A stretch of 64,000 nucleotides of DNA from NCBI GenBank assembly GCA_041749335.1, contig JBGTBM010000010.1, positions 221,110 through 285,109 of the forward strand, given 5' to 3'. The notes beneath the pieces were generated by a model, which saw only the letters and a list, made by a program, of their open reading frames with translations, was not told where the DNA came from and did not search any database. The translations under genes were made by a program, and so were the position numbers. Shown one piece after another: positions 19,295 through 38,138 of this stretch; position 1 is the stretch's first letter, and every line of letters starts with the position of its first letter. This stretch comes from Patescibacteria group bacterium (GTDB taxonomy: Bacteria > Patescibacteriota > JABMPQ01).

Positions 19295-20308
19295 TTATCT
19301 GTTTAGATATTGTTTTTTATAGTATTCCATATATTCACCCGATTTTATTTTCTTCCACCAAATTTCATTTTGCTGATACCATTCCACGGTCTTTTTAATT
19401 CCCTCTTCAAAATTAACTTGCGGATCCCAGCCTAGATTTCTCAACTTTTGTGTATCAACCGCATACCGTCGATCGTGTCCGGGACGATCCTTGACATACT
19501 CTATCATACTTTCATCTTTGCCGCATAATCTGACAATTGTTTTAGTTAATTCCATATTGGTTATTTCCGGATCATTATTAGCTCCCACATTATAAACTTC
19601 TCCCGAACTTCCTTGATGTAAAACTACGTCAATCCCGCCGCAATGATCTTCTACATAGATCCAATCCCTTATTTGATCCCCCTTGCCATAGATTGGCACC
19701 TTTTGTCCCTCAATTAAATTAGTCACAAATAGCGGAATAATTTTTTCCGGATATTGATAAGGGCCATAATTATTTGTGCCCCTGGTTATCATTACCGGTA
19801 AATCATAAGTCCGATGATATGCCATAACCATTAAATCACCTCCTGCCTTGGAAGCAGAATACGGACTAGAAGCTTCAATTTTATCTGTTTCTTTGGCAAA
19901 CCCCTTGCCCTCATAATCTCCATAGACTTCATCTGTGCTAATAAAAATCGCTTTCTCAATCCCATGCTTTTTAATCGCTTCTAATAAATTATAAGTACCA
20001 AATATATCAGTTTTAACAAAAGCTCCAGCTTCCAAAATTGAGCGATCAACATGGGTTTCAGCGGCAAAGTTTACCAATGTATCCAGCTTTTCTTCGGAAA
20101 ATACCTGATTGATTAATTTTTCATCACAGATATCCCCTTTGATAAATTTGTAACGAGGGTCATTTTCGATATCCTTTAAATTTTCCAAATTGCCGGCATA
20201 AGTTAACTTGTCAAAATTAACTATTTGATAATCCGGATATTTTTTTAACATATGGCGGATAAAATTTGAACCGATAAATCCCGCCCCGCCCGTTACTAAT
20301 ATTTTCAT
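19295..20308 (-). CDS. rfbB: dTDP-glucose 4,6-dehydratase
   Basis: 337 aa; MKILVTGGAGFIGSNF Rossmann motif; SDR YxxxK (YSASKAG); typical RmlB length and blocks. Confidence 0.9.
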   Translation of the reverse strand: MKILVTGGAGFIGSNFIRHMLKKYPDYQIVNFDKLTYAGNLENLKDIENDPRYKFIKGDICDEKLINQVFSEEKLDTLVNFAAETHVDRSILEAGAFVKTDIFGTYNLLEAIKKHGIEKAIFISTDEVYGDYEGKGFAKETDKIEASSPYSASKAGGDLMVMAYHRTYDLPVMITRGTNNYGPYQYPEKIIPLFVTNLIEGQKVPIYGKGDQIRDWIYVEDHCGGIDVVLHQGSSGEVYNVGANNDPEITNMELTKTIVRLCGKDESMIEYVKDRPGHDRRYAVDTQKLRNLGWDPQVNFEEGIKKTVEWYQQNEIWWKKIKSGEYMEYYKKQYLNR

Positions 20309-20324
20309 AATAATTAAAATTTAT

Positions 20325-20729
20325 TTATAAATTTTTAATCAGTTTTTCTGCCACTATTTGTGCTTCTTGTTCTTGATATTTCCGTTGCGGCCACAACCTC
20401 AAGCCGTCGCCTTTTACCCTAGGTATCACATGAAAATGTACATGCGGCACCACTTGCCCCGCCATTGTTCTATTATTCAGCGCTAAATTATATCCTTTAA
20501 CATTCAAGCCCTTTATCATCGCCTGACCAATCTTTTTAACTACTTTGCTCATTTCGCATAATATATTCTCCGGCAACTCTTCAATATTTTCAAAATGTTC
20601 TTTGGGAATTACTAAAGTATGCCCGGGATTAACCGGCATTATATCCAAAAAAGCGAAGACCTGATCGTTTTCATAGATTTTTTCACAAGGCACCTCGCCT
20701 TTTAATATTTTACAGAAAATACAATCCAT
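20325..20729 (-). CDS. HIT-family (HINT-like) hydrolase
   Basis: 134 aa; CIFCKI...NPGHTLVIPKEH...HVHFHVIPR histidine triad. Confidence 0.85.
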   Translation of the reverse strand: MDCIFCKILKGEVPCEKIYENDQVFAFLDIMPVNPGHTLVIPKEHFENIEELPENILCEMSKVVKKIGQAMIKGLNVKGYNLALNNRTMAGQVVPHVHFHVIPRVKGDGLRLWPQRKYQEQEAQIVAEKLIKNL

Positions 20730-20760
20730 AGGTTAGTTATTAGTCAATAGTCATTAGTGA

Positions 20761-21243
20761 TTAGTTGTGCTTAGTCCAATCATATCCGATCTTCTCGTCA
20801 TCATAAGCAATACGCTCTTCGTCCGGACTTTGGGCATTATAGCTTTCAGTGGTGTGATAAAAAAGATGCGCCGGCTTGTCACCCAATACCTTATAACCAT
20901 GAGCCACTCCCACCGGTATTAATATCACCTGCGGGTCATTTTCGCCATCACACAGTATCTCTTGAGTCTCCCCAAATGTCGGAGAATCTTCTCTCAAATC
21001 ATATAAGACTACCACTGCACGTCCGGAAGATATAAACCATAAATCATCCTGCAATTTATGCCAATGAAAAGCTTTTATAGTGCCCGGATGAGCGACCGTG
21101 TAGGTTGTTTGACCATATTTTGAAAGCAGTCCTTCGTCATTTCTTAGCACTTCCATCAAATGTCCCTCTTTCTCCACCGGTTCCCTGGTATCCGGAATGT
21201 CTTTGTGTACTTTAAGTTTTTTAATTTTTACACCGTCTATCAT
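20761..21243 (-). CDS. rfbC: dTDP-4-dehydrorhamnose 3,5-epimerase-like cupin (RmlC family)
   Basis: 160 aa; KAFHWHKLQDDLWFISSGRAVVVLYDLREDSPTFGE...IPVGVAHGYKVL...YHTTESYN matches RmlC blocks. Confidence 0.75.
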   Translation of the reverse strand: MIDGVKIKKLKVHKDIPDTREPVEKEGHLMEVLRNDEGLLSKYGQTTYTVAHPGTIKAFHWHKLQDDLWFISSGRAVVVLYDLREDSPTFGETQEILCDGENDPQVILIPVGVAHGYKVLGDKPAHLFYHTTESYNAQSPDEERIAYDDEKIGYDWTKHN

Positions 21244-21297: not shown

Positions 21298-21333
21298 TAA
21301 AAAAAGCAGAGGTTTTAAATCTCTGCTTTTTTA
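21298..21333. terminator. bidirectional rho-independent terminator downstream of surface-protein paralog 1
   Basis: aaaaaaaGCAGAGgttttaaatCTCTGCtttttt. Confidence 0.6.
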
Positions 21334-21337
21334 ATGA

Positions 21338-22270
21338 TTAATAGACTAAGATAATAAAATTTCTATCTTGTAGATTCCCTGCCCCGGTATCATGCGTATA
21401 AACCTGAACACTATTTGTATTAGAGGCATTGTTAAAGCTATAAGTGGCTAAGGTATCCGAGTCGGACATAGTAGTCCCATCTACAACGACAGAAATAAAT
21501 TTACCAGACACATTAAAACCAAAATTAACCTGATAACTTCCCGCAAGACCCGATCTCGTTATAGTTATATCGTTGGGACCAGCCGATCTTATGATCGATG
21601 GAGTTCCTTTACCATCTACCATTGCCATAGCTTTAACTGCACCATATCTCGCCCAGTGCTGTACAATATCGCCATCTAAAGATAATTTTCCTTCATTACT
21701 AACAGTTAAACCGCCTCCTCCGGTATTTTTACCAATCTCAAGCTCGTCTCCAATAATTTTTGCTCCCGGAACCCATAAAATATCTGCGAGACCGGCATTA
21801 ATATTCCCTTTATTATCAATAGTAAGTGTCACTCCCTTAGAAGGATTTTCCATAAGTAATTTTCCACTTACTTGGACATCTTTTGTCCACACTTCATTCC
21901 ATCTATGCAAAGAATCACCAAAATTATTGATATTAGTTAAGGTGGGAATTATATGATCTGAAATTTTCAGAGGATTATCTCCTCCTTTTTCTGACCGCCA
22001 AATTTCTCCATCGATTCTCACGTCATCTCCAAATGTAACCGGATCGTCGCTGTTATTTACAATTGTTCCATTAAAAAAGGTTACGCCGCCAATTCCCGGT
22101 TCGCCAATATAGGCAGAGTTTGCATAAATAGTGCCATTTACGTCTAAACTTTCATTATAGGTAATCGTTGATGCCGGCTGAAGGACATCAGCATCTGACG
22201 CTGCAGCTACTGCGGAAAACACAAAAACACCCAGCACAATTGCCAGTGTTCCCAGAAGTTTAATTTTCAT
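21338..22270 (-). CDS. secreted surface protein, paralog 1 of a three-member family (conserved N-terminal domain, divergent C-terminus)
   Basis: Signal peptide MKIKLLGTLAIVLGVFVFSAVAAA; N-terminal block LQPASTITYNE..GIGGVTFFNGTIVNN..DGEIWRSEKGGDNPLKISD..PT.TN shared with ORFs 22390..23367 and 36855..38012. Confidence 0.6.
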   Translation of the reverse strand: MKIKLLGTLAIVLGVFVFSAVAAASDADVLQPASTITYNESLDVNGTIYANSAYIGEPGIGGVTFFNGTIVNNSDDPVTFGDDVRIDGEIWRSEKGGDNPLKISDHIIPTLTNINNFGDSLHRWNEVWTKDVQVSGKLLMENPSKGVTLTIDNKGNINAGLADILWVPGAKIIGDELEIGKNTGGGGLTVSNEGKLSLDGDIVQHWARYGAVKAMAMVDGKGTPSIIRSAGPNDITITRSGLAGSYQVNFGFNVSGKFISVVVDGTTMSDSDTLATYSFNNASNTNSVQVYTHDTGAGNLQDRNFIILVY

Positions 22271-22309
22271 TTGTTTTTTATTTATTGTTTTTTTTAACTA
22301 ATTTATTAT

Positions 22310-22339
22310 ATTTTACCCCCCCCCGACTACTTCTGTCAA
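22310..22339 (-). promoter_or_regulatory. promoter of paralog 1 with a G9 (C9 on + strand) homopolymer in the -35/-10 spacer
   Basis: Sense strand: TTGACA gaagtagtc GGGGGGGGG TAAAAT (18-nt spacer); C-run at 22316-22324. Confidence 0.5.
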
Positions 22340-22348
22340 GACGAGATA

Positions 22349-22378
22349 AGAAAAAAGCACCTCCGGAGAGAAGTGCTT
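22349..22378 (-). terminator. rho-independent terminator downstream of paralog 2
   Basis: Sense strand AAGCACttctctccggagGTGCTT then tttttt. Confidence 0.5.
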
Positions 22379-22389
22379 TAAAATTTAAT

Positions 22390-23367
22390 CTAATAGACCG
22401 TTAACATAAATGACGAATCAATATTAGGAATTGTTGTTCCATTATCATCATATACAAATACATCAATTCCTTGAGCACCATTTATCGCTGTTGATATATC
22501 AGTCGGACTAACTCTTATTGGGGTTACTTGCCAATATCTATCATTTATATCAAATGCAAAATCAATAGTATAAACACCCGCTGGGTTTCCATCTTTTCTC
22601 TTACATGTTACTGAAGTATTATTAAATGTCCATGGTCTATTGCACAATCCATTAGATCCGACCATTACTAAGGCCTTAATAGCACCAGATGAATTTCTTG
22701 CTTGATATATATCTCCCTGAACGCCTAAATATGTTCCTACGTTTACATTTTTATCAACCGATATTCCTTCCTTAAACTCAACATTACTATTAAATATTGA
22801 ATTGTTTCCTACTCTTAACTGCCCATAACTATTTATTGTTACACCGCCTTGACTAAATCCTCCCGCAACATTAATGTTTTCAAAATCTGTCACCCCACTT
22901 ACATTTAAATCATTAAAGTTTGCCATCCCACTTATATTTATATCGTTAAAGTTCACATCTCCATTAAAATCAGCATTTTTAGCATACAACTTATTCCATC
23001 TATTTGCAGATGATCCAAAATCATTAGTATTTGTAATGGTCGGAATAACGTTATCAGAAATCTTTATTGGATCTCCACCCTTTACGCCTCTCCATATCTC
23101 TCCGTCCACTCTCATATCATCTGCAACAGTAAATGGATCTGTTGCCCCTTCATTTAGCACTGAACCATTAAAGAAAGTTACGCCACCCAATCCGGCCGTC
23201 CCTACTCTCAAAGAATCTGTATTTAAAGAGCCATTAATGTCTACATTTTCGTTGTAGATAATGTCTGATGCCGGTTGCAAAGTTGTAACATCTGACGCTG
23301 CAACGACTCCCGCGCAGAGGAATACTCCCAAAATAATAGTAAGCATTCCCGTTAGTTTTGTTTTCAT
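22390..23367 (-). CDS. secreted surface protein, paralog 2
   Basis: Signal peptide MKTKLTGMLTIILGVFLCAGVVAA; same N-terminal block as paralog 1; C-terminal half unrelated, rich in NFND/N-x-S/T motifs. Confidence 0.6.
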   Translation of the reverse strand: MKTKLTGMLTIILGVFLCAGVVAASDVTTLQPASDIIYNENVDINGSLNTDSLRVGTAGLGGVTFFNGSVLNEGATDPFTVADDMRVDGEIWRGVKGGDPIKISDNVIPTITNTNDFGSSANRWNKLYAKNADFNGDVNFNDINISGMANFNDLNVSGVTDFENINVAGGFSQGGVTINSYGQLRVGNNSIFNSNVEFKEGISVDKNVNVGTYLGVQGDIYQARNSSGAIKALVMVGSNGLCNRPWTFNNTSVTCKRKDGNPAGVYTIDFAFDINDRYWQVTPIRVSPTDISTAINGAQGIDVFVYDDNGTTIPNIDSSFMLTVY

Positions 23368-23387
23368 ATTTATTTGTTAGTTAATTT

Positions 23388-23424
23388 ATTATATTTTACC
23401 CCCCCCCCCAGCTACTTCTGTCAA
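23388..23424 (-). promoter_or_regulatory. promoter of paralog 2 with a G11 (C11 on + strand) homopolymer in the -35/-10 spacer
   Basis: Sense strand: TTGACA gaagtagct GGGGGGGGGGG TAAAAT (20-nt spacer); C-run at 23399-23409; flanks near-identical to the paralog 1 promoter. Confidence 0.5.
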
Positions 23425-23518
23425 AGCAAGGTGGGGATAAGTTTATTATTCAATTTACATTTAATGTCCTTACTGTAGAGGGACAGAACAATGTTCTGTC
23501 CCTACAAAAAAAATAATC

Positions 23519-23577
23519 CCTGAGCCCAGTCGAAGGGTTATTTTTGTCTAGCCTTCGACTTCGCTCAGGCAATAATT
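23519..23577 (-). terminator. long imperfect hairpin plus T-run (minus-strand terminator for the upstream GT operon)
   Basis: Minus strand reads cctgagcgaagtcgaagg...cccttcgactgggctcagg then gattatttttttt. Confidence 0.45.
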
Positions 23578-23780
23578 TATCTTTACGTTATTATAAATTC
23601 ACGAGATTTTCCTCCTTCAGCGGGCAGGCTTCTATTAATTGGCGGGATCGCAATGACGGAAAAAAAGAATGTTTTGGCATTTTGTAATTTGTTTGTATTT
23701 TGTTTTTTGTATCTTAATTTAATTTTTTTCAGCACCACCCCTTTAATTCCCCTCTCCTCCAAAGGCGGACAGGCTCATCT

Positions 23781-23788
23781 GGGGGGGG
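23781..23788 (+). repeat. orphan G8 homopolymer beside a TATATAAT box in a non-coding island
   Basis: ggacaggctcatctGGGGGGGGagacTATATAAT; homopolymers of 8 or more G/C are very rare at this base composition. Confidence 0.5.
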
Positions 23789-24018
23789 AGACTATATAAT
23801 TTAGTAAAACTGTTTAAGTTATAAGATTATTTTCAATACTTCTTTCTACTTCCTTCAATACTTCTTTCTTCTATTCCAAATTTGCATTTTTATACTAAAA
23901 AAGCGGGGCCACATAGATTGCGCGGCTCCCGCTCGAGGCTTAAATTCTTAAATTTTTGTAAGAATTCTCACCTAGTGAGATTACATAGTTTTTGGCTATG
24001 TAATCCGGTAGATGAAAA

Positions 24019-24207
24019 TTACACGCTTCCCCGCCCTATATTAATATACCGATTTACCAGTAAAAATATCATCAAAGCGAGGCTTGTAAACACCACTCCG
24101 TATTCCGAATAGACATTGGGCTCGTCGGACATAATGTCATGGATGGCTGCCCAGTTAATGCCAATAAAAGGCATTGAAACTAAAATTCTGATTAAATTTT
24201 TTTTCAT
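24019..24207 (-). CDS. possible small membrane protein downstream of the GT4 gene
   Basis: 62 aa ORF MKKNLIRILVSMPFIGINWAAIHDIMSDEPNVYSEYGVVFTSLALMIFLLVNRYINIGRG with two hydrophobic stretches; starts 6 nt after the GT stop. Weak support. Confidence 0.3.
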   Translation of the reverse strand: MKKNLIRILVSMPFIGINWAAIHDIMSDEPNVYSEYGVVFTSLALMIFLLVNRYINIGRGSV

Positions 24208-24212
24208 GTTGA

Positions 24213-25385
24213 TTAATTTACTTCCAGTGCGCTTTCTTTTACTTCCACATATTGTGTAGACAGCACTCGGGCATACAAATTTATTGTTTTTTTCGTGATA
24301 TCTTCCCAGTTGTAATTTTTAGATACATGTTTTTCCGCTTTGGCGCCAGTTTCAGCGACCAATTGAGGATTAGTAAGCAGTAGCTTTAACTTATATTTCA
24401 AATCTGCCACATTCTTGTTTTTAAACATATAGCCATTGCCGGCGAATGCTTCAATATTTTCCGGAATATTACTAACAAGAACTGTATTTCCATATTGCAT
24501 TGCCTCAAGGACAGTTATGGGAAGACCCTCTGATTCAGATGGATGAACATATAAATAAGCATTGTTAAATAGCTGGGATAAAGTTTTTCCAGACTGAAAG
24601 CCGGTAAAAACTATATCTTCCCTACCTTTGGCCAGTTTTTTTAAATAAGTTACATAATCATCGGTATAAGCAGAATCGCCCACTATCACCAGTTTAAGTT
24701 CTTTTAATTTTGATTCCCCTACTTCTTTTTTCAAATCAATAAAAGCCTTAATCAGATAATGAATGCCTTTATGGCGCACCAGCCGCGCGCAGGTCATAAT
24801 GTATGAGTTGGGCCTTAAATTAAATTTTCTGATATTGTCGAATCCTTCATGTTTTTCTATGGCTACTCCATTGGGGATATAATCAATATTGGCATGATAT
24901 TTCTTTAAACCTAAATCTCTAATAATTTTAGAAACGCCAATAGACTGATGGGGAAATTTACATGCGGCATATTCGCCAAACCTTAAGTACATTCTGGCAA
25001 AGCGGCCCCATTTTTGATGAAACTGATCGCGGCAATGAAAAGTAGAGACAACTTTGGCTTTTCTCTTTAATAACCTGGGAATAAAACTTAAAGTAGATGG
25101 TCCTACTCCCTGGTAGTGAATAATGTCAAAATTTCGCCTTAAAGCGTCCAAAGATGCAAAAAGCGTATGAGTAATCGCATCCAGATGCTTAGTCCTCAAA
25201 GAAGGCAAATAAATTAAATTTACTCCTTTATATTTTTTATCTTGATACTGAGTATAATGTTTACGTGAATAAACATAAACATCATGTCCGGCTTTAGCTA
25301 ATCTGATGCTAAGCTCTTCGGCATGCCTTTCTATTCCTCCCGATCTAGCCGGAATTCCTTTTTGTCCTATTAATGCTATCTTCAT
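24213..25385 (-). CDS. glycosyltransferase family 4 (GT-B fold)
   Basis: 390 aa; MKIALIGQKGIPARSGGIERH N-terminus; C-terminal GT4 motif PSESEGLPITVLEAMQYGNTVLVSNIPEN. Confidence 0.85.
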   Translation of the reverse strand: MKIALIGQKGIPARSGGIERHAEELSIRLAKAGHDVYVYSRKHYTQYQDKKYKGVNLIYLPSLRTKHLDAITHTLFASLDALRRNFDIIHYQGVGPSTLSFIPRLLKRKAKVVSTFHCRDQFHQKWGRFARMYLRFGEYAACKFPHQSIGVSKIIRDLGLKKYHANIDYIPNGVAIEKHEGFDNIRKFNLRPNSYIMTCARLVRHKGIHYLIKAFIDLKKEVGESKLKELKLVIVGDSAYTDDYVTYLKKLAKGREDIVFTGFQSGKTLSQLFNNAYLYVHPSESEGLPITVLEAMQYGNTVLVSNIPENIEAFAGNGYMFKNKNVADLKYKLKLLLTNPQLVAETGAKAEKHVSKNYNWEDITKKTINLYARVLSTQYVEVKESALEVN

Positions 25386-25624
25386 ACTTTTAAGTTATTT
25401 TAAGTTAAATTTATTACTTTTTGATCTGGACGCTAGCTTTTTTCCATTCCGATTAAACTATTTTAACTATGATATTTTTTTATGTTTTTATTTTTAAGCA
25501 ATTCATATTAACAGACTATAGTAGCATACTTTAATTTTATTGTCAAGGGTTTTTGACAAAGATTGCTCCAATATAAAAAACACCCTTAATGATGGTGCTT
25601 TTATAGTATTTGCCAGAAATTATT

Positions 25625-26734
25625 TTATTGTTGGTATAACTTCACAATTTCTTGAGTAATTTTATCCCAATTATATTCCTGACGGACATATTCTTTGGCC
25701 TTTTTGCCCGTATTTTTGACATAAACGGGATTCTGCAGCAGTTTATTTAGTTTATCATATAGATCATCAACATTGCCGGTCTTGAAATATCGGCCGAATT
25801 CACCCATGGCCTCAAGATTTTCCGGAATATCAGATATTAAAACCGTTTTCCCATAACTCATCGCTTCAAGAATAGTAATGGAAAGCCCCTCCGCCTCCGA
25901 CGGATGAACATATAAATATGAATTAATAAATAACTGATCCAGCGTCTCTCCTGTCTGATAGCCGGTAAAAATAATATCGTTATCTCCTTGTGCTAATTTA
26001 ATTAAATAATCCTTGTATTCAGAAGGGTAAGGCGACTCTCCTACCAAAACTAATTTTTTATCAGTGTCTAATTTCTTATAGGCTTGTATCAGCCAATGCA
26101 GTCCTTTGTGGCGGATAAAGCGCGCTACCGTAAGAATGTAATTATTGGGCGCAAGTCCCCACTTTTTTGTTTTATCCCCGCCCGCAGCTTCCCAGATTTT
26201 CACGCCATTGGGAATATATTGAGCCTTTTTGCCATATTCCATCTCGCACAGGCGCTGAATCGTTTTTGATACGGCAATTGTTTCGTGGGGAAATTTACAG
26301 GCAGTCCACTCCCCCAGCTGCAAAAACTTAGCCGCCAGCTTTCCCCATTTTTTATGATAACGATCCTGGCTGTGAAAAGTAACAACGGTTTTTGTCCGCC
26401 ATTTCAATAAACGAGGTATAAATGATAACACCGAAGGACCAACGCCGTGATAATGAATCACGTCATATTTTTTAAATAAAGCATGAATGGTTGAAATGAA
26501 AGTGTGAGTAATGGCATCAAAATATTTGGAATTTATTGAAGGAGTAAAGATTAATTTAAGATTTTTTACGCCGGTGCGTTTTTTTAACGCGCGCGGAGTA
26601 TAATGCTTGCGCGAATAGACAAAAACTTCATGGCCCGATAAAACCAGGGTTTTGCTTAGATTTTCCACATGTGTTTCAATCCCGCCGTCATGTGTGACAA
26701 ATATTCCTTTTTGCCCGATCATCGCTATCCGCAT
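25625..26734 (-). CDS. glycosyltransferase family 4, tandem paralog of the previous gene
   Basis: 369 aa; about 50% identical by eye to 24213..25385 (MRIAMIGQKGIFVTHDGGIETH...HPSEAEGLSITILEAMSYGKTVLISDIPEN). Confidence 0.85.
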   Translation of the reverse strand: MRIAMIGQKGIFVTHDGGIETHVENLSKTLVLSGHEVFVYSRKHYTPRALKKRTGVKNLKLIFTPSINSKYFDAITHTFISTIHALFKKYDVIHYHGVGPSVLSFIPRLLKWRTKTVVTFHSQDRYHKKWGKLAAKFLQLGEWTACKFPHETIAVSKTIQRLCEMEYGKKAQYIPNGVKIWEAAGGDKTKKWGLAPNNYILTVARFIRHKGLHWLIQAYKKLDTDKKLVLVGESPYPSEYKDYLIKLAQGDNDIIFTGYQTGETLDQLFINSYLYVHPSEAEGLSITILEAMSYGKTVLISDIPENLEAMGEFGRYFKTGNVDDLYDKLNKLLQNPVYVKNTGKKAKEYVRQEYNWDKITQEIVKLYQQ

Positions 26735-26943
26735 ATGCTTCTTCTTAATATTAATTATGTATAAAAATCCAATTATATTAAATCATTCACTTCTCGTCCC
26801 GACGTTACGTCGGGATTATAGCAATACGCATAAAAAAATTTTGCCTTTTGCCTGGCAGCTAATATCTTTTATCTTTAGGCGTTTAGTTAATATTATCACA
26901 ATAAAAAAAGAGAGTAAATTTCCACTCTCTTTTTTCTTTATAA

Positions 26944-27573
26944 TTAAGCGGCCATATTTTTTATTTCGCGTAGAACTTCCATCTTTCTAGCTATGGTTTT
27001 TTCTTTTCTGACTGATTCTTCAATTTCTTTGCTTAAAACAATATAGCTATCGGTTAATTCATTAAATTTTTCTTCATCTTTAGCTGCCGCTGCCTCTTTT
27101 AATTGTTTTTTTAAATTATTTCTTTGCACTATTAATTCATTCATTTCAGTTATTTCAAGCAGAGTTTCCATCGCTTCTGAAATTTTTTCGTCTAAATCGC
27201 TCAAATCAATATCAAACTCTGACATTTCCGCCTCGGCTTTTGGCAAATTAATGCCAAGCTCGGCGGTGGTTTCCAAAGCAATATTGACATCATTTAATTC
27301 TTCTTCAAGCCGTGCTATTTCCAAATCTATTTGATTGTAATCCTCAATCATTTGCTTTAAATCATCCACATTCTGCTCTTGAGCAATAATCTCAGCTTTT
27401 AACTTTCGTTGCCTCTCCAAATCAGAAATTTGAGCGCTAGTTTCCACAATCTTATTGCGCAGCTCTTGAGCATATTCCGCCGGAGTTTCCTTTTTCTCGC
27501 CCTTTTCAGCCTTTTCCGGCACTTTACCGGTTAATTCTTCTTCTGAAATTGATAGACCTTCTGGATTCATCAT
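26944..27573 (-). CDS. acidic coiled-coil protein, function unknown
   Basis: 209 aa, about 30% Glu/Asp/Lys with heptad-like periodicity (LERQRKLKAEIIAQEQNVDDLKQMIEDYNQIDLEIARLEEEL). Confidence 0.45.
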   Translation of the reverse strand: MMNPEGLSISEEELTGKVPEKAEKGEKKETPAEYAQELRNKIVETSAQISDLERQRKLKAEIIAQEQNVDDLKQMIEDYNQIDLEIARLEEELNDVNIALETTAELGINLPKAEAEMSEFDIDLSDLDEKISEAMETLLEITEMNELIVQRNNLKKQLKEAAAAKDEEKFNELTDSYIVLSKEIEESVRKEKTIARKMEVLREIKNMAA

Positions 27574-27726
27574 ATATATTTATTATTTATTTATGCCTAT
27601 ATATTAACATATTTTATATTTAAAGTCAACGAAATATTATTGACATTATAATTTATTTATTATATACTATGATGATTTACTTGCAGTTTAAGTCTTAAAT
27701 ATTTATATTGAAAACGAAAATATTTT

Positions 27727-30700
27727 ATGAAAACACATTATCGTAAAGACAAATTTCGCTTTCCCCAATATTTTCTTAATAAAGAATTTCCAATTTTTAT
27801 TAAGGTTGTGGCAATTCTGATTATTTTGGCCATTATTCTTTTTATTATTGATACCATCGGATTAACCTATAAACCACAAATAGAAATTGATGCCTATACG
27901 GTTAAACACGATATTGATCCTAATTTATATGGATATAGTATCGATTCTAATTTTACTTATAACCAAAACCTAGTAGGCGCCATCAACCAATACGGCGCGC
28001 AATCTATGAGAATTATGGATGAATATGAGCCGGGAGCGCGTATGCTTTTAAAGATTAATAATGGAGCAAGCTATGTTTTAGCTGCCGACAATGTCCCCTA
28101 TGAGCCCAACCGCAATTACCAAGTTAAAATTCAGGTTAATGAAAGCAATATTAAGCTTTGGATAGACGGCAAACAAATTTTTAGTGTTAACGATTCAACC
28201 TACAAAAATGGTGAAATTGGCTTAACCTCAAGCTTTAATCTTAATTCTTATTTTGATAATGTTGTAGTTCGCAATAATGAGAGTAATATCCTTTTTTCTG
28301 ATAATTTTTCCCGCGGCTTCGATAAATGGGAAAACGGCAATATTCCCGGCTTTTATCAACAAGGCGACTGGCTGCTTGACGATGACAGCTTAAAACACGA
28401 AGGCCAGCAGTCTATTACGCTAAAAAAGGCCGGAGATAATAATTGGAGAAATTATACTATCACCGCCGACTTAAAATCGTCAACGCAAAATATTTATGAG
28501 GCTGGGTTTATTGGCATTGTGTTTCGTTATAATGGAATACTGAACAATTATAAATTTTTATGGCGCTCCGGCTTACGACAACCCTTCTCATCTAATAATC
28601 CTTGGGAAATTGCGGACTATGACGGCCAATTCCGCTTTCTCCAAGAAACAAATTTAAAGCCTAATATGGTCATTAATATGCGCGACGATTCCGTCCAATC
28701 AGCCGCTGATTTGGTGCACGAATTAAATATTGAAAAAAAATTAGGAATAAAATATTGGGAGCTCGGCAATGAAATATGGCTGTGGAGCGACTCTTACATC
28801 CACAACGACCAATATGCTCAAAAAGTAAAAAATTATTCCCGAGCCATGAAAGCGGTAGATCCCAGCATAAAAATCGGCGCCACTCTGCTTTTGGGATTTT
28901 CAGACTGGGATAATTTAGTAATTCGCGAAACTGCTCCTTATATTGATTTTATTGTTTTTCATTTTTATCCCTACTACGTTCAAAGCAATATTTCAGATTA
29001 TCATATATTGGGCGCTCCCTATGCGTTCGGCAATAATTTTAAGAATAATAATGGACAAGGCAAGGGTATTGTAGAAAATGCTAAAGATTTAATCAGGAAA
29101 GAGGCGCCAGGGCATGAAAACAGAATTGAATTTGCAGTAACTGAATATAACACCGGAGACTATGATCAAGGAATTGATCTTATTTACGGCTTGGCAGTCG
29201 CAGATCTTTTAGGCGAAGCGGCTAAGCAGGACATTAAACTTATGCAATTTCATAAGCTAGCCAACGAAACCGCCTGGCATTGGGGAGCTTTTACCGAAGA
29301 TTATCGAGCTAAACCGTCTGCGCTGGCGATCTCAATGTACACAAAACACTTCGGCGATAAAATGTTAGATGCCAAAGTAAAAAATACTCCCACCTTTTAC
29401 GTCCCAGAAAAAATTAATGTGCCGGCAATTTCTAATATACCGTACTTGTCGGTTCATGTTAGCCGCAGCAAAGATGATAAAAAATTATATTTGATGGTAA
29501 TTAATAAGCACGCGGCCGCCGATATGCAAACAACTATAAATATTGCCAACGCTAATATTTCCGCGCAGGCAAAAGCCTATACTTTAAACGGACCCTCCAT
29601 CCATTCCGATAATAATTATGCCGATAATGTAGCCATATCGGAGAAAACAATTAATAATGCCAATTCAAAATTTATCTATAATTTTCCGGCTCATTCCGTA
29701 ACCGCGATTGAATTTAATATTGAAAATTTAATTAAGCCCAAAGTACAAACAGCTATAACTGTCCCAAAAAGCGAAATTAAAAATACGCCCGCTACTCCTG
29801 ATATCGGAGGACCATCAGATAATTCTATTCAGACATCTAAAATTGCCGCTTCCGCCGGTTTGGGCGGAAATCCCCATATAAAAACTTTTGACTCTCTGGG
29901 TAATCAATCTCAAGGTAACTTTTTTGCCTATGATCAAAATTTTAAAGGCGGGGTTTCAATAGCTTTATGCGACTTTGAAGGCGATGGAAAAAATGAAGTG
30001 ATAACCGGCGCGGGAGCGGGCGGCGGGCCGCATCTCAGAGCTTTCCGCGAAGACGGAAGAGAAATCGCCAACTTCTTTCCCTTTGATCCGAATTTCCGCG
30101 GCGGTATTGATGTCGCTTGCGGCGATATAGATAAAGACGGGCGCGATGAAATCGTAACTTCTCAAAATTCCCAAGGCCAAGCCTGGATTAAGGTATATCG
30201 CTACGACACGCGAAAAAGTATCATTGGAGAATGGAATGCTTTTGGGCATGTGGAATGTGGCGCGTCTGTGGCAATGGGAGATGTAGACGGAGACGGCACA
30301 GATGAAGTGATTGTTGGAGCGGGAGCAGGAGGCGGGCCACATATTAGAATTTATGAAGCTGACGGCACTCTAAAGCCATTAGAGTTTTTTGCCTTTCATC
30401 CGAACTACCGCGGTGGTATTTCGGTTGCTGCCGGCGATGCGGATGGAGACGGCCAAGATGAAATTGGCGTATCTCAATCCGGTTATGGCGATCAATCCTG
30501 GACCAAGGTATACAAATACAATAACGAGCATTCGGTCTTAGGCGAATGGAAAGCTTACGGCGATGCGATCTTAAGCGCGCATATTGCCATGGGAGATATT
30601 GACGGCGATGGGCGCGCAGAAGTAGTTACTGGAACGGGCTTGGGCGGAGAACCGCTGGTGCTAACTTTTAATGCTTATGGACAAATTAAGCCGGTTAGTT

Positions 30701-30756
30701 TTTACGTATTTGATCGAGCCTTTGTTGGCGGAATTGAAGTAGATGTTAAAAAATAA
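27727..30756 (+). CDS. membrane-anchored surface protein: two ConA-like jelly-roll domains + clan GH-A glycoside hydrolase TIM barrel + FG-GAP/VCBS beta-propeller repeats
   Basis: 1009 aa; N-terminal TM FPIFIKVVAILIILAIILFIID; DUF1080/LamG-like blocks; catalytic-looking IKYWELGNEIW (acid/base NE) and FAVTEYNTGD (nucleophile E); five repeats of the type CDFEGDGKNEVITGAGAGGGPHLRAF and MGDVDGDGTDEVIVGAGAGGGPHIRIY. Confidence 0.7.
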   Translation: MKTHYRKDKFRFPQYFLNKEFPIFIKVVAILIILAIILFIIDTIGLTYKPQIEIDAYTVKHDIDPNLYGYSIDSNFTYNQNLVGAINQYGAQSMRIMDEYEPGARMLLKINNGASYVLAADNVPYEPNRNYQVKIQVNESNIKLWIDGKQIFSVNDSTYKNGEIGLTSSFNLNSYFDNVVVRNNESNILFSDNFSRGFDKWENGNIPGFYQQGDWLLDDDSLKHEGQQSITLKKAGDNNWRNYTITADLKSSTQNIYEAGFIGIVFRYNGILNNYKFLWRSGLRQPFSSNNPWEIADYDGQFRFLQETNLKPNMVINMRDDSVQSAADLVHELNIEKKLGIKYWELGNEIWLWSDSYIHNDQYAQKVKNYSRAMKAVDPSIKIGATLLLGFSDWDNLVIRETAPYIDFIVFHFYPYYVQSNISDYHILGAPYAFGNNFKNNNGQGKGIVENAKDLIRKEAPGHENRIEFAVTEYNTGDYDQGIDLIYGLAVADLLGEAAKQDIKLMQFHKLANETAWHWGAFTEDYRAKPSALAISMYTKHFGDKMLDAKVKNTPTFYVPEKINVPAISNIPYLSVHVSRSKDDKKLYLMVINKHAAADMQTTINIANANISAQAKAYTLNGPSIHSDNNYADNVAISEKTINNANSKFIYNFPAHSVTAIEFNIENLIKPKVQTAITVPKSEIKNTPATPDIGGPSDNSIQTSKIAASAGLGGNPHIKTFDSLGNQSQGNFFAYDQNFKGGVSIALCDFEGDGKNEVITGAGAGGGPHLRAFREDGREIANFFPFDPNFRGGIDVACGDIDKDGRDEIVTSQNSQGQAWIKVYRYDTRKSIIGEWNAFGHVECGASVAMGDVDGDGTDEVIVGAGAGGGPHIRIYEADGTLKPLEFFAFHPNYRGGISVAAGDADGDGQDEIGVSQSGYGDQSWTKVYKYNNEHSVLGEWKAYGDAILSAHIAMGDIDGDGRAEVVTGTGLGGEPLVLTFNAYGQIKPVSFYVFDRAFVGGIEVDVKK

Positions 30757-30816
30757 TTAAATCAATAAAAAACTCAGTTCTAAATATTTTGGACTGAGTT
30801 TTGTTTTACTGAAAAA

Positions 30817-32034
30817 TTAAATAAGCTTATTATATTCCGTAATTAACTTTGTGTAATACTGCTCGGAATCTAAATTAATTTCTGCAAATTGTTTGGCATT
30901 CTCTCCCATTTTTTGCGCCCGATCCGGCTCTTTGCCAATTTCAATGATTTTATTTTTTAAATCCCGCCAGTCGCCCGCCTTGAAAAGCATGCCCGTCTGA
31001 CCATGCTTCACCAATTCAGGTAGCGCGCCAATATCAGACGCAATTACTGTTTTGCCTTGAGCAAACGATTCGGCAATCGTTAAACCAAATGTCTCGTAAT
31101 TTCTTGAAGGCACCATGACATATTTTGCCCCCCTAATAGCTTTAGTCAAATTTTCACCGGCCAAATATCCAACAAACTCAATGTTATTCAAATTATTCTT
31201 TTTAACAAAATTTTTATAAATATTCTCGTGCGGACCGGTGCCGGCAATCATTAGCCTGTCATTTTTTAGATATTGATAGGCTTTTAATAAATCCATTAGT
31301 CCCTTTTCTTTTATCAATCTGCCGAAATATAAAGCATATTCGCCTGCTTGGCTTGATAAATTTTTTATACCCAAATTAACAAAATGCGGCAGTACAATTA
31401 TTTTTTTGCCGGGCCAGCCATATTCAACCAATTTGTTCCGAACAAACTCGCTGGGACAAATATATAAATCAATATTATTACGATAAATTTTGAGAAGCCG
31501 ATGTAAATACATTTCAACCATATTAACTTTGCTGGCTGCGTAAGAATTTTTGGCGCACCGATGCAGAACACAATTGTAAAACTTGTTCACCTTACATCTT
31601 TCACAGACTTCGCCTTCAGTAAAAAAACTATATACCGGGCATAAAAGCTTAAAATCATGCACTGACATTACTATCGGAATTTTTTTGTCTTTTAAAACCG
31701 TAAGGATTGAAGGGGAAATTTGATGATAAATATTATGAATATGAGCCAGATCGATTTTCTCGTCAGCCAATAAATTTTTTAATTTTCTTTGTGCTTCCCA
31801 CGAATATAAAATCCGTCCGGCCGCCTTGACATCCTGCCAAGAAAACCCGGCCTTCTCGATATTAATCGGACTGACAAAATATTTTTTATAGGGCGTAGGT
31901 TCATTTTTAATATCTTCCATAGCAAAAGGAATAACCCGAAGACCCCTTTTCACTAATAAATCACTAAGGTTAAAATAATACCTTTCCGCTCCCCCTTTTA
32001 GATAATAGAATTTATTTATTTGTAGAATATTCAT
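30817..32034 (-). CDS. glycosyltransferase family 4
   Basis: 405 aa; C-terminal SRNYETFGLTIAESFAQGKTVIASDIGALPELV GT4 motif. Confidence 0.8.
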   Translation of the reverse strand: MNILQINKFYYLKGGAERYYFNLSDLLVKRGLRVIPFAMEDIKNEPTPYKKYFVSPINIEKAGFSWQDVKAAGRILYSWEAQRKLKNLLADEKIDLAHIHNIYHQISPSILTVLKDKKIPIVMSVHDFKLLCPVYSFFTEGEVCERCKVNKFYNCVLHRCAKNSYAASKVNMVEMYLHRLLKIYRNNIDLYICPSEFVRNKLVEYGWPGKKIIVLPHFVNLGIKNLSSQAGEYALYFGRLIKEKGLMDLLKAYQYLKNDRLMIAGTGPHENIYKNFVKKNNLNNIEFVGYLAGENLTKAIRGAKYVMVPSRNYETFGLTIAESFAQGKTVIASDIGALPELVKHGQTGMLFKAGDWRDLKNKIIEIGKEPDRAQKMGENAKQFAEINLDSEQYYTKLITEYNKLI

Positions 32035-32078
32035 TTATGCTCTAATAAATAATTGTTAAACCCGATCACATTCTAAAT

Positions 32079-33005: not shown

Positions 33006-33006
33006 A

Positions 33007-36854: not shown

Positions 36855-38012
36855 TTAGTGCAAAACGACCCAGCTACTGCCATCGCATACCCTTAATTTA
36901 TCGGTTGAATCATCAAACCAAAGCATACCTTTGGTAAAATTATCAGCACATGTATAAGGTGCGCTATTATATGGTAATATTGTTAATGTTCCAACTACTG
37001 AAGAATTGTCCGACTGGACTTTTCCAATACTATAATTAGATCCGATTATAGTTTGAGCATCAATACTGGCATTTACATCAATGGTATTAACATCATTCAA
37101 ACTATGATTACCCATTTCAATATCACCCGACATTGTTCCACCTGCTAAAGGTAGGTACTGACTTACGGTAATATTATCCGGAATATCAGCATCCGCAAGT
37201 CCGGATACTCCGTTGACAGCCAGGTTGCCAGTCAAGACCCCCCCCGTTAATTGAAGATACCTGCCATCAGACTGTGCCTTAGTATAATAGTCGCCCGTAG
37301 AAAGTCCAGTTACCGTTGCTTCGCTAAAATCGACATCGCCAGTAAATTTCACATCATTGCCTTCTAATAAACCGCTAAATTTAGCATTATTTCCCTGCAA
37401 AGAACCGCTCAGCTCTACATCAACACCCTGTAACATTCCAGATAAATATAAATCGTTCCAGCGTTTATTTGCAGATCCTAAATTATTAATATCATCCTTG
37501 GTCGGATACATTGAATCGGAAACAAATAAGGGATCATCGCCATCAATTATTCCTTTTTTAGTGCCACCCCATATTTCCCTACCAACCATAAAATCTTCAC
37601 CATATAAATATCCCGCCAAATAAAGATCTTTCCATCTTTTATCATCAAACCCCAAATTATATGCATTAGTGTCTGTTGGCGTTAAAGAATCAGAAAATTT
37701 AAGCGGCTGGCCATCGGCTTGCCCCTTGCTGGGACCGCGCCAAATTTCACCATCAATCCGCAAATCATCGCCGATCGTAACCGGAATTTGCGGACCGACA
37801 TTAATAATCGTGCCATTGAAGTAAGTAACTCCACCCACTCCTTCATAGCCTACACGCAACGAGCTGACTTGCAAGGAGCCATTAACTGTCATATTCTCAT
37901 TATAAACAATGCTAGCTGGCTGGATCATTTCCGCGGTAGAAGCGTTGGTTGCGCTAGCAAACAAAGCTAAAGCTGTAATTCCTAAAGTTAAACCTAATAT
38001 TTTTGTTTTCAT
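36855..38012 (-). CDS. secreted surface protein, paralog 3; contains an in-frame G8 coding homopolymer
   Basis: Signal peptide MKTKILGLTLGITALALFASATNA; N-terminal block IQPASIVYNE..GVGGVTYFNGTIINV..DGEIWRGPSKG..PLKFSD shared with paralogs 1 and 2; currently an intact 385-aa frame. Confidence 0.6.
   Translation of the reverse strand: MKTKILGLTLGITALALFASATNASTAEMIQPASIVYNENMTVNGSLQVSSLRVGYEGVGGVTYFNGTIINVGPQIPVTIGDDLRIDGEIWRGPSKGQADGQPLKFSDSLTPTDTNAYNLGFDDKRWKDLYLAGYLYGEDFMVGREIWGGTKKGIIDGDDPLFVSDSMYPTKDDINNLGSANKRWNDLYLSGMLQGVDVELSGSLQGNNAKFSGLLEGNDVKFTGDVDFSEATVTGLSTGDYYTKAQSDGRYLQLTGGVLTGNLAVNGVSGLADADIPDNITVSQYLPLAGGTMSGDIEMGNHSLNDVNTIDVNASIDAQTIIGSNYSIGKVQSDNSSVVGTLTILPYNSAPYTCADNFTKGMLWFDDSTDKLRVCDGSSWVVLH
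37238..37245 (-). repeat. C8 (G8 on sense strand) homopolymer inside the paralog 3 coding sequence
   Basis: caagaCCCCCCCCgttaat; sense ACG GGG GGG GTC encodes TGGV in LQLTGGVLTGN. Confidence 0.6.
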
Positions 38013-38138
38013 GTTTATTTGTCAATTATTATTTTAATTTATTATACAGTATTTTGTGATTATAGTTAAATTCATTTTCATGCTTCTTATAACATAGCCG
38101 ATAAAATAAAACATGTAATAGTTTAAGAAAACAATCAG

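What the first reader, a model, noticed from the sequence alone, without database searches (positions are those of the whole stretch)
21338..23367. Three-member paralogous surface-protein family: conserved ~110-aa N-terminal module, unrelated C-terminal halves
ORFs 21338..22270, 22390..23367 and 36855..38012 share signal peptides and an N-terminal block. The block reads (I/L)QPAS.I.YNE....NG......SL.VG..G.GGVT(F/Y)FNG(T/S)I.N......P.T.(G/A)DD.R(I/V)DGEIWRG.KGG..P(L/I)K.SD...PT.TN...G....RW. C-terminal halves are unrelated to each other; paralog 2 carries NFNDxNxSG repeats and paralog 3 carries LxGxDVxxSG repeats. A conserved anchoring or secretion module plus a variable distal module, combined with on/off switching, is the architecture of antigenically or functionally variable adhesins, pilins and tail-fibre-like proteins. 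In an episymbiotic CPR-like organism this could be a host-attachment repertoire.
Basis: seen in the sequence. Interest (0 to 1): 0.55.

Follow-up and report, generated by a model that had tools for sequence, protein, structure and literature searches.

The report
Switchable tail-fibre-like surface fibres
Three genes in this tiny-genome (Patescibacteria/CPR) bacterium encode secreted proteins built like phage tail fibres, with a shared base and exchangeable tips, each carrying a slippery run of G's that probably switches it on or off; these are plausible, untested candidates for how such symbionts choose and grip their hosts.

Summary
The three ORFs are real and share a signal peptide plus a ~100-aa N-terminal module.

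The module defines an unannotated family. It has no Pfam or NCBIfam model and 687 representative clusters, and every named member is Patescibacteria. It sits directly after a Sec signal peptide. Individual MAGs contribute many loci, often tandem arrays, scattered among housekeeping genes.

The same module is fused to at least 27 C-terminal types, including Peptidase_S74 chaperone domains. The p2 tip model resembles phage tail-fibre and tailspike receptor-binding domains. A module sub-motif matches solved phage spikes and fibres.

The layout matches the Bdellovibrio MAT fibres. Homology of the N-domains could not be tested.

All four G/C runs of 8 or more in the 64 kb lie at these genes. These are G9 and G11 in the promoter spacers of p1 and p2, and G8 inside p3. 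Related strains show G7–G11 in the same block, giving spacers of 15–20 nt. This is a classic slipped-strand switch design, apparently unreported in CPR.

Trimer formation, surface display, switching and host binding are all inferred.

The parts
21338..22270 (-). p1: secreted fibre protein, 310 aa. Signal peptide aa 1-25, N-module aa 30-128 (nt 21887-22183), class-A '...ILVY' tip from about aa 200 (nt 21341-21673).
   Evidence: Identical to P0035. A near-identical copy, P0210, occurs in another sample.
22310..22339 (-). p1 promoter: TTGACA (22334-22339), 9 nt, G9 (22316-22324), TAAAAT (22310-22315). Spacer 18 nt.
   Evidence: (best promoter match in the region, 11 of 12).
21299..21332 (-). p1 intrinsic terminator (hairpin gcagag...ctctgc followed by a T run).
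   Evidence: Read directly. The weak Rfam hits at 21300-21332 are terminator-like only.
22390..23367 (-). p2: secreted fibre protein, 325 aa. Signal peptide aa 1-25, N-module aa 30-128 (nt 22984-23280), ~10-residue repeats aa 130-165, class-A beta-sandwich tip aa 230-325 (nt 22393-22680).
   Evidence: (AF2: tip pLDDT about 90).
23393..23424 (-). p2 promoter: TTGACA (23419-23424), 9 nt, G11 (23399-23409), TAAAAT (23393-23398). Spacer 20 nt, outside the usual 16-18 range.
   Evidence: Not reported by the 16-18 nt promoter scan.
22354..22379 (-). p2 intrinsic terminator, so p2 and p1 are separate transcription units.
36855..38012 (-). p3: secreted fibre protein, 385 aa. N-module aa 30-131 (nt 37620-37925), duplicated sub-module aa 146-192 (nt 37437-37577), tail-fibre-type repeats (YLQLTGGVLTG, YLPLAGGTMSG), class-B tip 'C..G.LWF....L.VC.G..W' aa ~345-385 (nt 36858-36980).
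37238..37245 (-). G8 tract inside the p3 coding sequence (codons ACG GGG GGG GTC, aa 255-258). Loss of one G gives a stop at 259 aa and gain of one G gives a stop at 275 aa; both remove the tip.
   Evidence: this codon combination has P of about 0.002 from the window's codon usage.
38041..38048 (-). p3 extended -10 (TGTATAAT). This promoter has no homopolymer.
23781..23788 (+). Fourth long tract (G8 on the + strand) in the 845-nt intergenic region upstream of p2. It reads GACAGgctcatctG8agacTATATAAT, a degenerate copy of the promoter block inverted relative to the genes. Function unknown.
   Evidence: The same GGCGGACAGGCTCATCT block lies in the gene orientation in L085.

Best explanation
p1, p2 and p3 are Sec-exported, probably trimeric surface fibres of a Patescibacteria (Parcubacteria-type) cell, built on the plan of phage receptor-binding proteins.

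Proposed working model:
- After signal-peptide cleavage (A-x-A site a few residues before LQPAS), a conserved ~100-aa N-terminal module is proposed to hold the fibre on a cell-surface element. This role is inferred.
- A short repeat stalk follows.
- A variable C-terminal tip is proposed to bind a ligand, most likely a glycan or protein on a host or partner cell. This is also inferred.
- Tips are exchanged by recombination within the conserved 5' part. This is shown as mosaicism in a relative, and as different tip classes at the orthologous slot in different strains.
- Each gene is its own transcription unit.
- p1 and p2 are switched by slipped-strand changes in a poly-G tract that sets the -35/-10 spacing. 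G8 gives the optimal 17 nt. In this assembly p1 has 18 nt (probably on or weak) and p2 has 20 nt (probably off).
- p3 has an ordinary promoter but a G8 tract in its coding sequence. A +1 or -1 slip there truncates the protein before the tip.
- The expected outcome is a population in which cells display different combinations of fibres.

Shown here: the family, the signal peptides, the modularity, the S74-bearing members, the similarity of the tip fold and the sub-motif to phage proteins, and the position and length diversity of the tracts.

Inferred: trimer formation, surface anchoring, actual switching, and host binding.
For: Family and export:
- The N-module profile finds 687 representative clusters (454 at E<=1e-10). 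The module nearly always lies at aa ~30-135.
- Nearly all of the 111 module-bearing ORFs with a called start in 84 loci begin with a signal-peptide-like sequence.
- AF2 predicts an N-terminal helix followed by a break.
- There is no Pfam, NCBIfam or PDB assignment.

Cellular, not viral:
- Genes are monocistronic among gatB, miaA and miaB, ScpA/B, recA and efp, and the str operon.
- One genome supplies many loci, often in tandem.

Fibre nature:
- Members with the same N-module end in Peptidase_S74 (32.7-45.3 bits against a cutoff of 22) with the SSIRYK motif.
- A module sub-motif matches tail spike 6EU4 (E 1.1e-4), cyanophage fibre 8I4M (E 0.007) and, weakly, T5 fibre 4UW8. There are also weak End_tail_spike and PHROG tail-fibre hits.
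- The p2 tip model matches 32 BFVD proteins at E<=1e-3, and most of the named ones are tail fibres or spikes.
- The N-module has pLDDT 74-87 but no intrachain sheets, as expected for one chain of an intertwined trimer.

Modularity:
- There are 27 C-terminal clusters among 150 members.
- The slot upstream of the dTDP-sugar isomerase holds a class-A tip in the window and L085, but class B in L005 and L208.
- Paralogs P0007, P0010 and P0016 are 98-100% identical in DNA from -45 to about +250 and about 45% identical after that.

Switch:
- The only four G/C runs of 8 or more in 64 kb are at these genes. Expected: 0.19 under an iid model, about 1.2 under a first-order Markov model.
- The TTGACA-N-Gn-TAAAAT block recurs in 9 promoters from at least 4 samples, with G7-G11 and spacers of 15-20. 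One promoter has an interrupted tract (GGGAGGGG, 16 nt).
- The same design shows length differences at orthologous promoters in unrelated gut bacteria.
- The codon choice of the p3 tract is improbable.
Against: - No multimer model or experiment shows trimers. p1, p2 and p3 themselves lack S74.
- The p3 model is poor (pLDDT 57.8). tblastn of the p3 C-terminal part against phage records found nothing.
- No reads were available, so within-population tract heterogeneity is unproven.
- The two p1 orthologues seen in different samples both have G9.
- Homopolymer lengths in metagenome assemblies can be off by one.
- The poly-G promoter is confined to this clade (plus one possible case, L017) and is not a family-wide feature.
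- Promoter spacing rules are taken from model bacteria.
- Nothing shows what the N-module or the tips bind.
Confidence: 0.62

Rival explanations
1. The genes are receptor-binding proteins of a prophage, tailocin or other phage-derived particle. They would be assembled in the cytoplasm rather than displayed on the cell surface.
For: There is fold and motif similarity to phage tail fibres and spikes. Some members carry S74 domains. The mosaic tips are typical of phage receptor-binding proteins.
Against: - Nearly every member has a Sec signal peptide. Virion fibres assembled in the cytoplasm do not have one.
- No phage structural genes lie nearby. The neighbours are housekeeping and cell-envelope glycan genes in six different contexts.
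- Single genomes contribute many unlinked loci.
- No match was found in 50,697 phage records.
Confidence: 0.06
2. They are secreted lectins or glycan-binding or glycan-degrading proteins. They would serve the cell's own envelope (S-layer or wall glycopolymer assembly) or nutrient scavenging, not partner recognition. The conserved N-module would be a wall-binding domain.
Against: - p1, p2 and p3 are too short (310-385 aa) to hold a depolymerase beta-helix, and no enzyme family is detected.
- Extreme tip diversity, many copies per genome, and individual stochastic switches fit recognition of variable external targets better than a housekeeping envelope role.
Confidence: 0.2
3. The poly-G tracts are not switches. 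They would be neutral mutational or assembly features, or fixed promoter elements, and the genes would be expressed constitutively.
For: No read-level heterogeneity was seen. p1 and its orthologue both have G9. Most family members in other lineages have ordinary promoters.
Against: - The tracts occur at exactly the same promoter position in 9 genes from at least 4 samples, even though the adjoining spacer bases differ. Their lengths span G7-G11.
- They are the only long G/C runs in 64 kb of 37% GC DNA.
- One promoter has an interrupted tract that restores a 16-nt spacer.
- p3 places a tract in its coding sequence using rare codons.
- Orthologous promoters of the same design in other bacteria do vary between samples.
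Confidence: 0.15

Closest known systems
Bdellovibrio bacteriovorus MAT (mosaic adhesive trimer) fibre superfamily (Caulton et al. 2024, PMC10769870)
   Same: [quoted passage not shown] That domain is presumed to sit on the predator's surface. A trimeric beta-helix or prism stalk follows. Tips are diverse and swappable, 13 with S74 and 8 without, and there are 21 copies per genome. The cell that uses them must recognise other bacteria. The family here shows the same order of parts, both S74 and non-S74 members, many copies per genome, and mosaicism.
   Different: - The host lineage is different, and the envelope probably is too (the envelope point is my own knowledge, untested).
- The proteins are much shorter, mostly 220-450 aa against roughly 600-1000 or more.
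- Homology of the two N-domains could not be tested. No Bdellovibrio name appears among the hits, and AFDB was unavailable.
- The parts of the MAT paper read here do not mention phase-variable promoters.
Phage tail fibres and tailspikes with C-terminal Peptidase_S74 intramolecular chaperone (K1F endosialidase, T5 pb1) and related receptor-binding tips
   Same: They share a sequence motif (D..IP..tN.ydLGss..rw...Y) with 6EU4, 8I4M and 4UW8. Family members carry S74 domains. The tip fold resembles phiAB6, Pam1, AP22 gp53 and pyocin fibres. Tips are shuffled modularly.
   Different: They are exported through Sec and encoded by chromosomal, monocistronic genes with no virion genes nearby. The conserved part is a cell-specific N-module, not a baseplate or tail attachment domain.
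Promoter-spacer homopolymer phase variation: Neisseria meningitidis porA (poly-G) and opc (poly-C), and the Mycoplasma hyorhinis vlp family (poly-A), from my own knowledge of the literature
   Same: A mononucleotide run lies between the -35 and -10 boxes. Its length sets the spacing and therefore transcription. As in vlp, several paralogous surface-protein genes each carry their own tract, which would allow combinatorial on/off display.
   Different: Switching has not been demonstrated here. The organism is a CPR bacterium, and no paper in the searched library reports phase variation in that group. One paralog (p3) uses a tract in the coding sequence instead.

Membership tests
Bdellovibrio MAT fibre superfamily | [quoted passage not shown] | tested here: met
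   Signal peptides are seen in nearly all 111 ORFs with a called start. The module lies at aa ~30-135 in the best 150 representatives. This matches in architecture only.
Bdellovibrio MAT fibre superfamily | N-terminal domain homologous to the MAT N-domain | not testable with these tools
   No MAT N-domain sequence or structure was available. PDB entries hold only C-terminal fragments, and the A2 profile found none of them. AFDB50 was not installed. No Bdellovibrio name appears among the hits.
Bdellovibrio MAT fibre superfamily | C-termini either Peptidase_S74 or diverse non-S74 tip domains | tested here: met
   P0073, P0125 and P0159 carry S74 above the cutoff. There are 27 tip clusters. p1, p2 and p3 themselves are non-S74.
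Bdellovibrio MAT fibre superfamily | Intertwined trimer along the fibre | tested here: inconclusive
   Only monomer AF2 was possible. The N-module and stalk are confident locally but have no intrachain sheets. The presence of S74 in relatives implies trimers for those relatives.
Phage tail fibre / tailspike receptor-binding proteins | Encoded within a virion structural module and assembled without a secretion signal | tested here: not met
   The neighbours are housekeeping genes in six contexts. Sec signal peptides are present throughout. No phage record matches.
Phage tail fibre / tailspike receptor-binding proteins | Distal receptor-binding domain fold and fibre sequence motifs | tested here: met
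Promoter-spacer homopolymer contingency loci (porA / opc / vlp type) | Mononucleotide tract of 8 or more between the -35 and -10 hexamers | tested here: met
   p1 is TTGACA-N9-G9-TAAAAT and p2 is TTGACA-N9-G11-TAAAAT.
Promoter-spacer homopolymer contingency loci (porA / opc / vlp type) | Tract length differs between strains or paralogs so that the spacing crosses the functional range | tested here: met
   G7-G11 gives spacers of 15-20 nt across 9 promoters, plus one interrupted tract at 16 nt.
Promoter-spacer homopolymer contingency loci (porA / opc / vlp type) | Length heterogeneity within a population, and expression that tracks length | not testable with these tools
   No reads or expression data were available. 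Two assemblies of one sample agree (G10).
Type IV pilins | Class III signal peptide (short basic leader, G/FTLIE-type cleavage site) | tested here: not met
   The N-termini are classic Sec type, for example MKTK + an 18-residue hydrophobic stretch + AAS/ASA.
Sortase-anchored (LPXTG) adhesins | C-terminal LPXTG motif, hydrophobic segment and basic tail | tested here: not met
   The C-termini read ...NFIILVY...SFMLTVY and ...SSWVVLH. A sortase gene lies near one relative (L003), but that arrangement is not conserved.

The most novel reading that the evidence does not exclude
Patescibacteria carry a phylum-wide, so far undescribed family of Sec-exported, phage-receptor-binding-protein-like trimeric fibres. 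Their interchangeable tips would set which host or partner cell an episymbiont can attach to. In at least one Parcubacteria lineage each fibre gene would be an independent contingency locus, switched by a poly-G tract in the promoter or the coding sequence. A clonal population would then continuously sample combinations of host specificities. This would be the first phase-variation system reported in CPR bacteria, and a cellular counterpart of phage host-range switching.
Probability: 0.35. Interest if true: 0.85.

Novelty: new variant of a known kind. Interest (0 to 1): 0.68.

Why it matters
How ultrasmall CPR/Patescibacteria episymbionts find and bind their hosts is an open question. A 2025 ISME J abstract retrieved says the mechanisms 'remain largely unknown', and type IV pili are the main candidate studied so far.

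This finding supplies a concrete, sequence-defined candidate repertoire:
- It is an unannotated family with a recognisable N-module profile.
- It has hundreds of tip variants, including S74-processed ones.
- It occurs in many copies per genome.
- It looks like phage receptor-binding proteins and parallels the Bdellovibrio MAT fibres.

This makes several things testable. Tip-to-host pairing could be predicted from co-occurring genomes. Tips could be expressed and used as probes for the unknown hosts of uncultivated CPR. The poly-G promoters could be checked in existing read sets for population heterogeneity.

If switching is confirmed, contingency-locus biology would extend beyond pathogens and mycoplasmas to environmental ultrasmall bacteria.

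Tried and rejected
- Pfam, NCBIfam and PHROGs scans of p1-p3 gave only sub-threshold hits.
- phmmer of p3 and the N-module profile against PDB sequences gave nothing usable. The best match was the YdcK left-handed beta-helix at E 0.16.
- Foldseek against the PDB with the p2 model gave no hit at E<=0.001.
- The AFDB50 fold search, meant to test similarity to Bdellovibrio MAT N-domains, was unavailable on the machine.
- The second homologue search with the module profile returned mainly short fragments. It added only taxon names.
- The AF2 model of p3 was too poor for fold searching (pLDDT 57.8).
- tblastn of the p3 stalk and tip against 50,697 phage records found no match.
- Exact look-ups of p1, P0001 (p2) and P0012 in the contig index found no record, so I could not compare tract lengths between independent assemblies of this same genome.
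It recovered no family member.
- Rfam found no RNA family in the long intergenic region upstream of p2.
- Considered and rejected on sequence features: pilins (no class III leader), LPXTG adhesins (no sorting signal), lipoproteins (the Cys in the p2 leader has no lipobox and is absent from p1), and prophage fibres (signal peptides and chromosomal context).
- The Gracilibacteria 'hypervariable surface protein' paper (PMC6851277) describes a different, repeat-based system.
Full report
**1. Observation**

The three ORFs are present on the minus strand exactly where stated: p1 21338..22270 (310 aa), p2 22390..23367 (325 aa) and p3 36855..38012 (385 aa).
- All three start with a classic Sec signal peptide. 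It has an MK(T/I)K start, about 18 hydrophobic residues and an A-x-A site.
- All three share a conserved block at aa ~30-130. BLASTP gives 2e-54 (p1/p2), 1e-33 (p1/p3) and 3e-38 (p2/p3).
- tblastn finds no other copy in the window.

- p1 and p2 align over their whole length at 35% identity and end in the same domain.
- p3 differs after the stalk.
- p3 also carries an internal duplication of the second half of the module.

**2. The family**

p2 has only 30 relatives at the 90% cluster level among 5.8 billion proteins. None has a Pfam domain, and the only names are 'hypothetical protein' from Patescibacteria or Parcubacteria.

I built a 22-sequence alignment of the module (A2) and used it as a profile.
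- It finds 687 clusters among 1.84 billion representatives, of which 454 reach E<=1e-10.
- The module almost always lies at residues ~30-135.
- In species-representative genomes, 119 stretches encode it. Nearly all are in Patescibacteria MAGs (Parcubacteria, Kerfeldbacteria, WWE3, Doudnabacteria and some bins with other labels).
- Single MAGs contribute 7 or more loci among the best 80, often as tandem arrays.
- Nearly all of the 111 module-bearing ORFs for which a start could be called begin with a signal-peptide-like sequence.

The invariant core is LQPA...G.GGVTFFNGT...(P)VT.GD..R.DG. The following sub-module (EIWRG..KGG.P.K.SD..IPT..N.NDLGS..RW...Y) can be single, duplicated (p3, P0028, P0125) or absent.

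**3. Modularity**

The last 110 residues of the 150 best members fall into 27 BLAST clusters.
- 47 end in ...LTVY (p1, p2).
- 28 end in ...PLP or ...SPD.
- 17 carry C..G.IYY....GC.G..W (p3).
- 17 end in ...SFSFVIY.
- 10 end in ...WIAVGY.
- 4 carry Peptidase_S74.
- There are also several smaller clusters and 18 singletons.

A close relative (ERZ4787356, a 551-kb contig) is syntenic with the window. Its gene order is GT4, GT4, two family genes, dTDP-sugar isomerase, HIT, epimerase, ScpA. Its two genes carry class-B tips where the window has class A.

Two further strains fill the slot directly upstream of the isomerase differently. One carries class A (L085) and the other class B (L208).

In the relative, three paralogs at two loci are 98-100% identical in DNA from about -45 to +250. 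After that, identity drops to about 45%. That sharp boundary is a recombination or gene-conversion signature and a route to tip swapping.

**4. What kind of protein**

Sequence libraries give only sub-threshold hints for p1-p3: End_tail_spike at E 0.007 and PHROG tail fibre or spike families at E 0.002-0.06. Four stronger lines of evidence follow.

(a) Members with the same N-module end in Peptidase_S74, the intramolecular chaperone of trimeric phage fibres.
- Scores are 32.7-45.3 bits against a cutoff of 22, and the SSIRYK Ser-Lys motif is present.
- P0125 and its tandem neighbour sit between sugar-nucleotide genes and the str ribosomal operon. These are cellular genes.

(b) Family profiles match solved phage proteins through the sub-module motif. 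The matches are tail spike 6EU4 (E 1.1e-4), cyanophage P-SCSP1u fibre gp28 8I4M (E 0.007) and T5 L-shaped fibre 4UW8 (E 0.25).

(c) The AF2 model of p2 has mean pLDDT 77.7.
- The C-terminal beta-sandwich (aa 230-325) is confident, with pLDDT about 90.
- The N-module scores 74-87 but has no intrachain sheets. This is what one chain of an intertwined trimer tends to look like, although that reading is an inference.

The p3 stalk carries the familiar tail-fibre repeats YLxLxGGxxxG.

Against a viral origin:
- Signal peptides are present throughout the family.
- The neighbours are housekeeping genes in six independent contexts.
- No match was found in 50,697 phage records.

**5. The switch**

The window has 37% GC and contains only four G/C runs of 8 or more. 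Expected: 0.19 under an iid model, about 1.2 under a first-order Markov model. There are no runs of 7. All four lie at this family.

*Promoter tracts.* p1 and p2 each have their own promoter and terminator.
- p1 reads TTGACA-GAAGTAGTC-G9-TAAAAT, an 18-nt spacer. It is the best promoter match in the region.
- p2 reads TTGACA-GAAGTAGCT-G11-TAAAAT, a 20-nt spacer, outside the 16-18 range.

The same block recurs upstream of relatives from at least four samples:

| Gene(s) | Tract | Spacer |
|---|---|---|
| P0004 | G7 | 15 nt |
| P0007 | G8 | 17 nt |
| P0015 | G8 | 18 nt |
| p1, P0210, P0016 | G9 | 18 nt |
| P0005, P0010 | G10 | 19 nt |
| p2 | G11 | 20 nt |
| P0003 | interrupted GGGAGGGG | 16 nt |

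The bases between the -35 box and the tract differ among these promoters while the tract persists. That argues for maintenance of the tract itself.

*Coding tract.* p3 has an ordinary extended -10 promoter but a G8 in its coding sequence (ACG GGG GGG GTC).
- That codon combination is expected about 0.2% of the time.
- The homologous GG motifs of P0003 never use it.
- A -1 slip gives a stop at 259 aa and a +1 slip gives a stop at 275 aa. Either removes the tip.

*Fourth tract.* The run at 23781-23788 lies in a degenerate copy of the promoter block, inverted relative to the genes, and remains unexplained.

*The design elsewhere.* A metagenome scan for the block found no family member. It did show that promoters of this design in unrelated, mostly gut bacteria carry G8-G11 at clearly orthologous sites in different samples. 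The design therefore does vary in nature.

*Limits.* By the spacing rules of sigma-70 promoters (established knowledge from model bacteria), G8 would be optimal, p1 would be on or weak, and p2 would be off in this assembly. No reads were available, so switching within a population is inferred. Homopolymer lengths in assemblies can also be off by one.

The poly-G promoter is confined to this clade, with one other possible case in L017 (G9 near the -35 box).

**6. Mechanism proposed**

1. The proteins are exported through Sec and the signal peptide is cleaved.
2. The conserved N-module holds the fibre on a cell-surface element. The recurring neighbourhood of glycosyltransferase, sugar-nucleotide, Wzy and LytR genes suggests a wall glycopolymer as partner or modifier. 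This is speculative.
3. The stalk and tip project outward and bind a ligand on a host or partner cell.
4. Recombination within the conserved 5' cassette exchanges tips.
5. Slippage in the G tracts turns individual fibres on and off, giving mixed populations.

Shown: the family, the signal peptides, the modularity, the S74 members, the tip and motif similarity to phage proteins, and the tract positions and lengths. Inferred: trimer formation, anchoring, switching and host binding.

**7. Comparison with known systems**

*Architecture.* The closest known match is the Bdellovibrio MAT fibre superfamily. It has a signal peptide and a conserved ~130-aa beta-rich N-domain with no PDB homologue, presumed to sit on the predator surface. 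It also has a trimeric stalk, S74 and non-S74 tips, tip swapping, and 21 copies per genome (PMC10769870).
- Membership could not be decided. I had no MAT N-domain to compare, AFDB50 was unavailable, and no hit carries a Bdellovibrio name.
- I therefore call this MAT-like in design, not a MAT.

*Regulation.* The closest known cases are promoter-spacer homopolymers in Neisseria porA and opc and the Mycoplasma hyorhinis vlp family. This comparison rests on my own knowledge, not on papers read here.

*Excluded.* It is not a phage gene, a pilin or an LPXTG protein. Defining features of each were tested and not met.

**8. Novelty and score**

The searched library holds no paper linking Patescibacteria/CPR with phase variation or with tail-fibre-like adhesins. 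That is absence from this library, not proof of absence.

Both building blocks are known kinds. What appears undescribed is this particular family, its breadth in CPR, and its coupling to homopolymer switches. I rate it a new variant of a known kind, with interest 0.68. It gives the host-recognition question in CPR biology a concrete, testable set of candidates.

Noticed in passing
window 23368-24212: The 845-nt intergenic region upstream of p2 holds non-coding blocks conserved with the relative (L005 8500-8860). These include an attacatag...ctatgtaat hairpin, a terminator (gcgggagccgcgcaatctatgtggccccgctttttt) and the hairpin gtagggacagaacattgttctgtccctac. There is also a 62-aa membrane-like ORF at about 24019-24207 (-) and an inverted, degenerate promoter block with G8 at 23781-23788. 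Rfam finds no family here.
   Followed up: partly
L086-L205 (metagenome contigs, mostly human gut): The promoter design TTGACA-N9-G(8-12)-TAAAAT is common in unrelated bacteria. Clearly orthologous promoters, with identical flanks, carry G8, G9, G10 or G11 in different samples. One example is ...GGCGCGGATA TTGACA AAAATGTGT with G9 in L086 and L105 but G10 in L111 and L178. The downstream genes were not analysed.
   Followed up: partly
window 23425-23445 and 22340-22355; L001, L004, L005, L085, L208 upstream regions: A conserved TTATCC(C/A)CA(C/T)(C/T)T motif lies 5-10 nt upstream of the -35 box of most poly-G promoters in this clade. It is degenerate in p1. It could be an UP element or a regulator-binding site.
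   Followed up: no
L004 9830-10230; L005 8765-9165 and 9830-10230: In the relative's genome, three paralogs at two loci about 100 kb apart share a 98-100% identical cassette covering the promoter, 5'UTR, signal peptide and the first ~85 codons. Their 3' parts are unrelated. This points to recent gene conversion. In the window's own genome the paralogs are only 58-70% identical over that stretch.
   Followed up: yes
window 27727-30756 (+): This ORF encodes a 1009-aa protein with an N-terminal membrane anchor and C-terminal FG-GAP-type repeats (GDxDGDGxxE). It sits in the same cell-envelope glycan island. It is conserved in synteny in the relative (L005 947-3973), and a GH18 + FG-GAP protein lies next to P0003 (L003 3753-5870). 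It may be a second surface protein associated with the fibre genes.
   Followed up: no
window 24213-34443: The fibre genes flank a cluster for surface glycan synthesis. It contains two GT4 glycosyltransferases, a coiled-coil protein, another GT4, a GT2 and an O-antigen-ligase/Wzy-like membrane protein. The dTDP-sugar isomerase and epimerase lie at 19295-21243. Family members in other genomes also sit next to sugar-nucleotide, Wzy or LytR genes (L003, L209).
   Followed up: partly
L017 about 2834-2842: A distant family member in Parcubacteria bin.624 has a G9 run about 71 nt upstream of its start codon. The run overlaps the expected -35 region of a GGTATAAT promoter. It may be an independent homopolymer switch.
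   Followed up: no
L005 4144-5115: The relative has an IS-type transposase (HTH + rve integrase domains) inserted between the FG-GAP gene and the glycosyltransferases. The window has no such insertion at the equivalent position.
   Followed up: no
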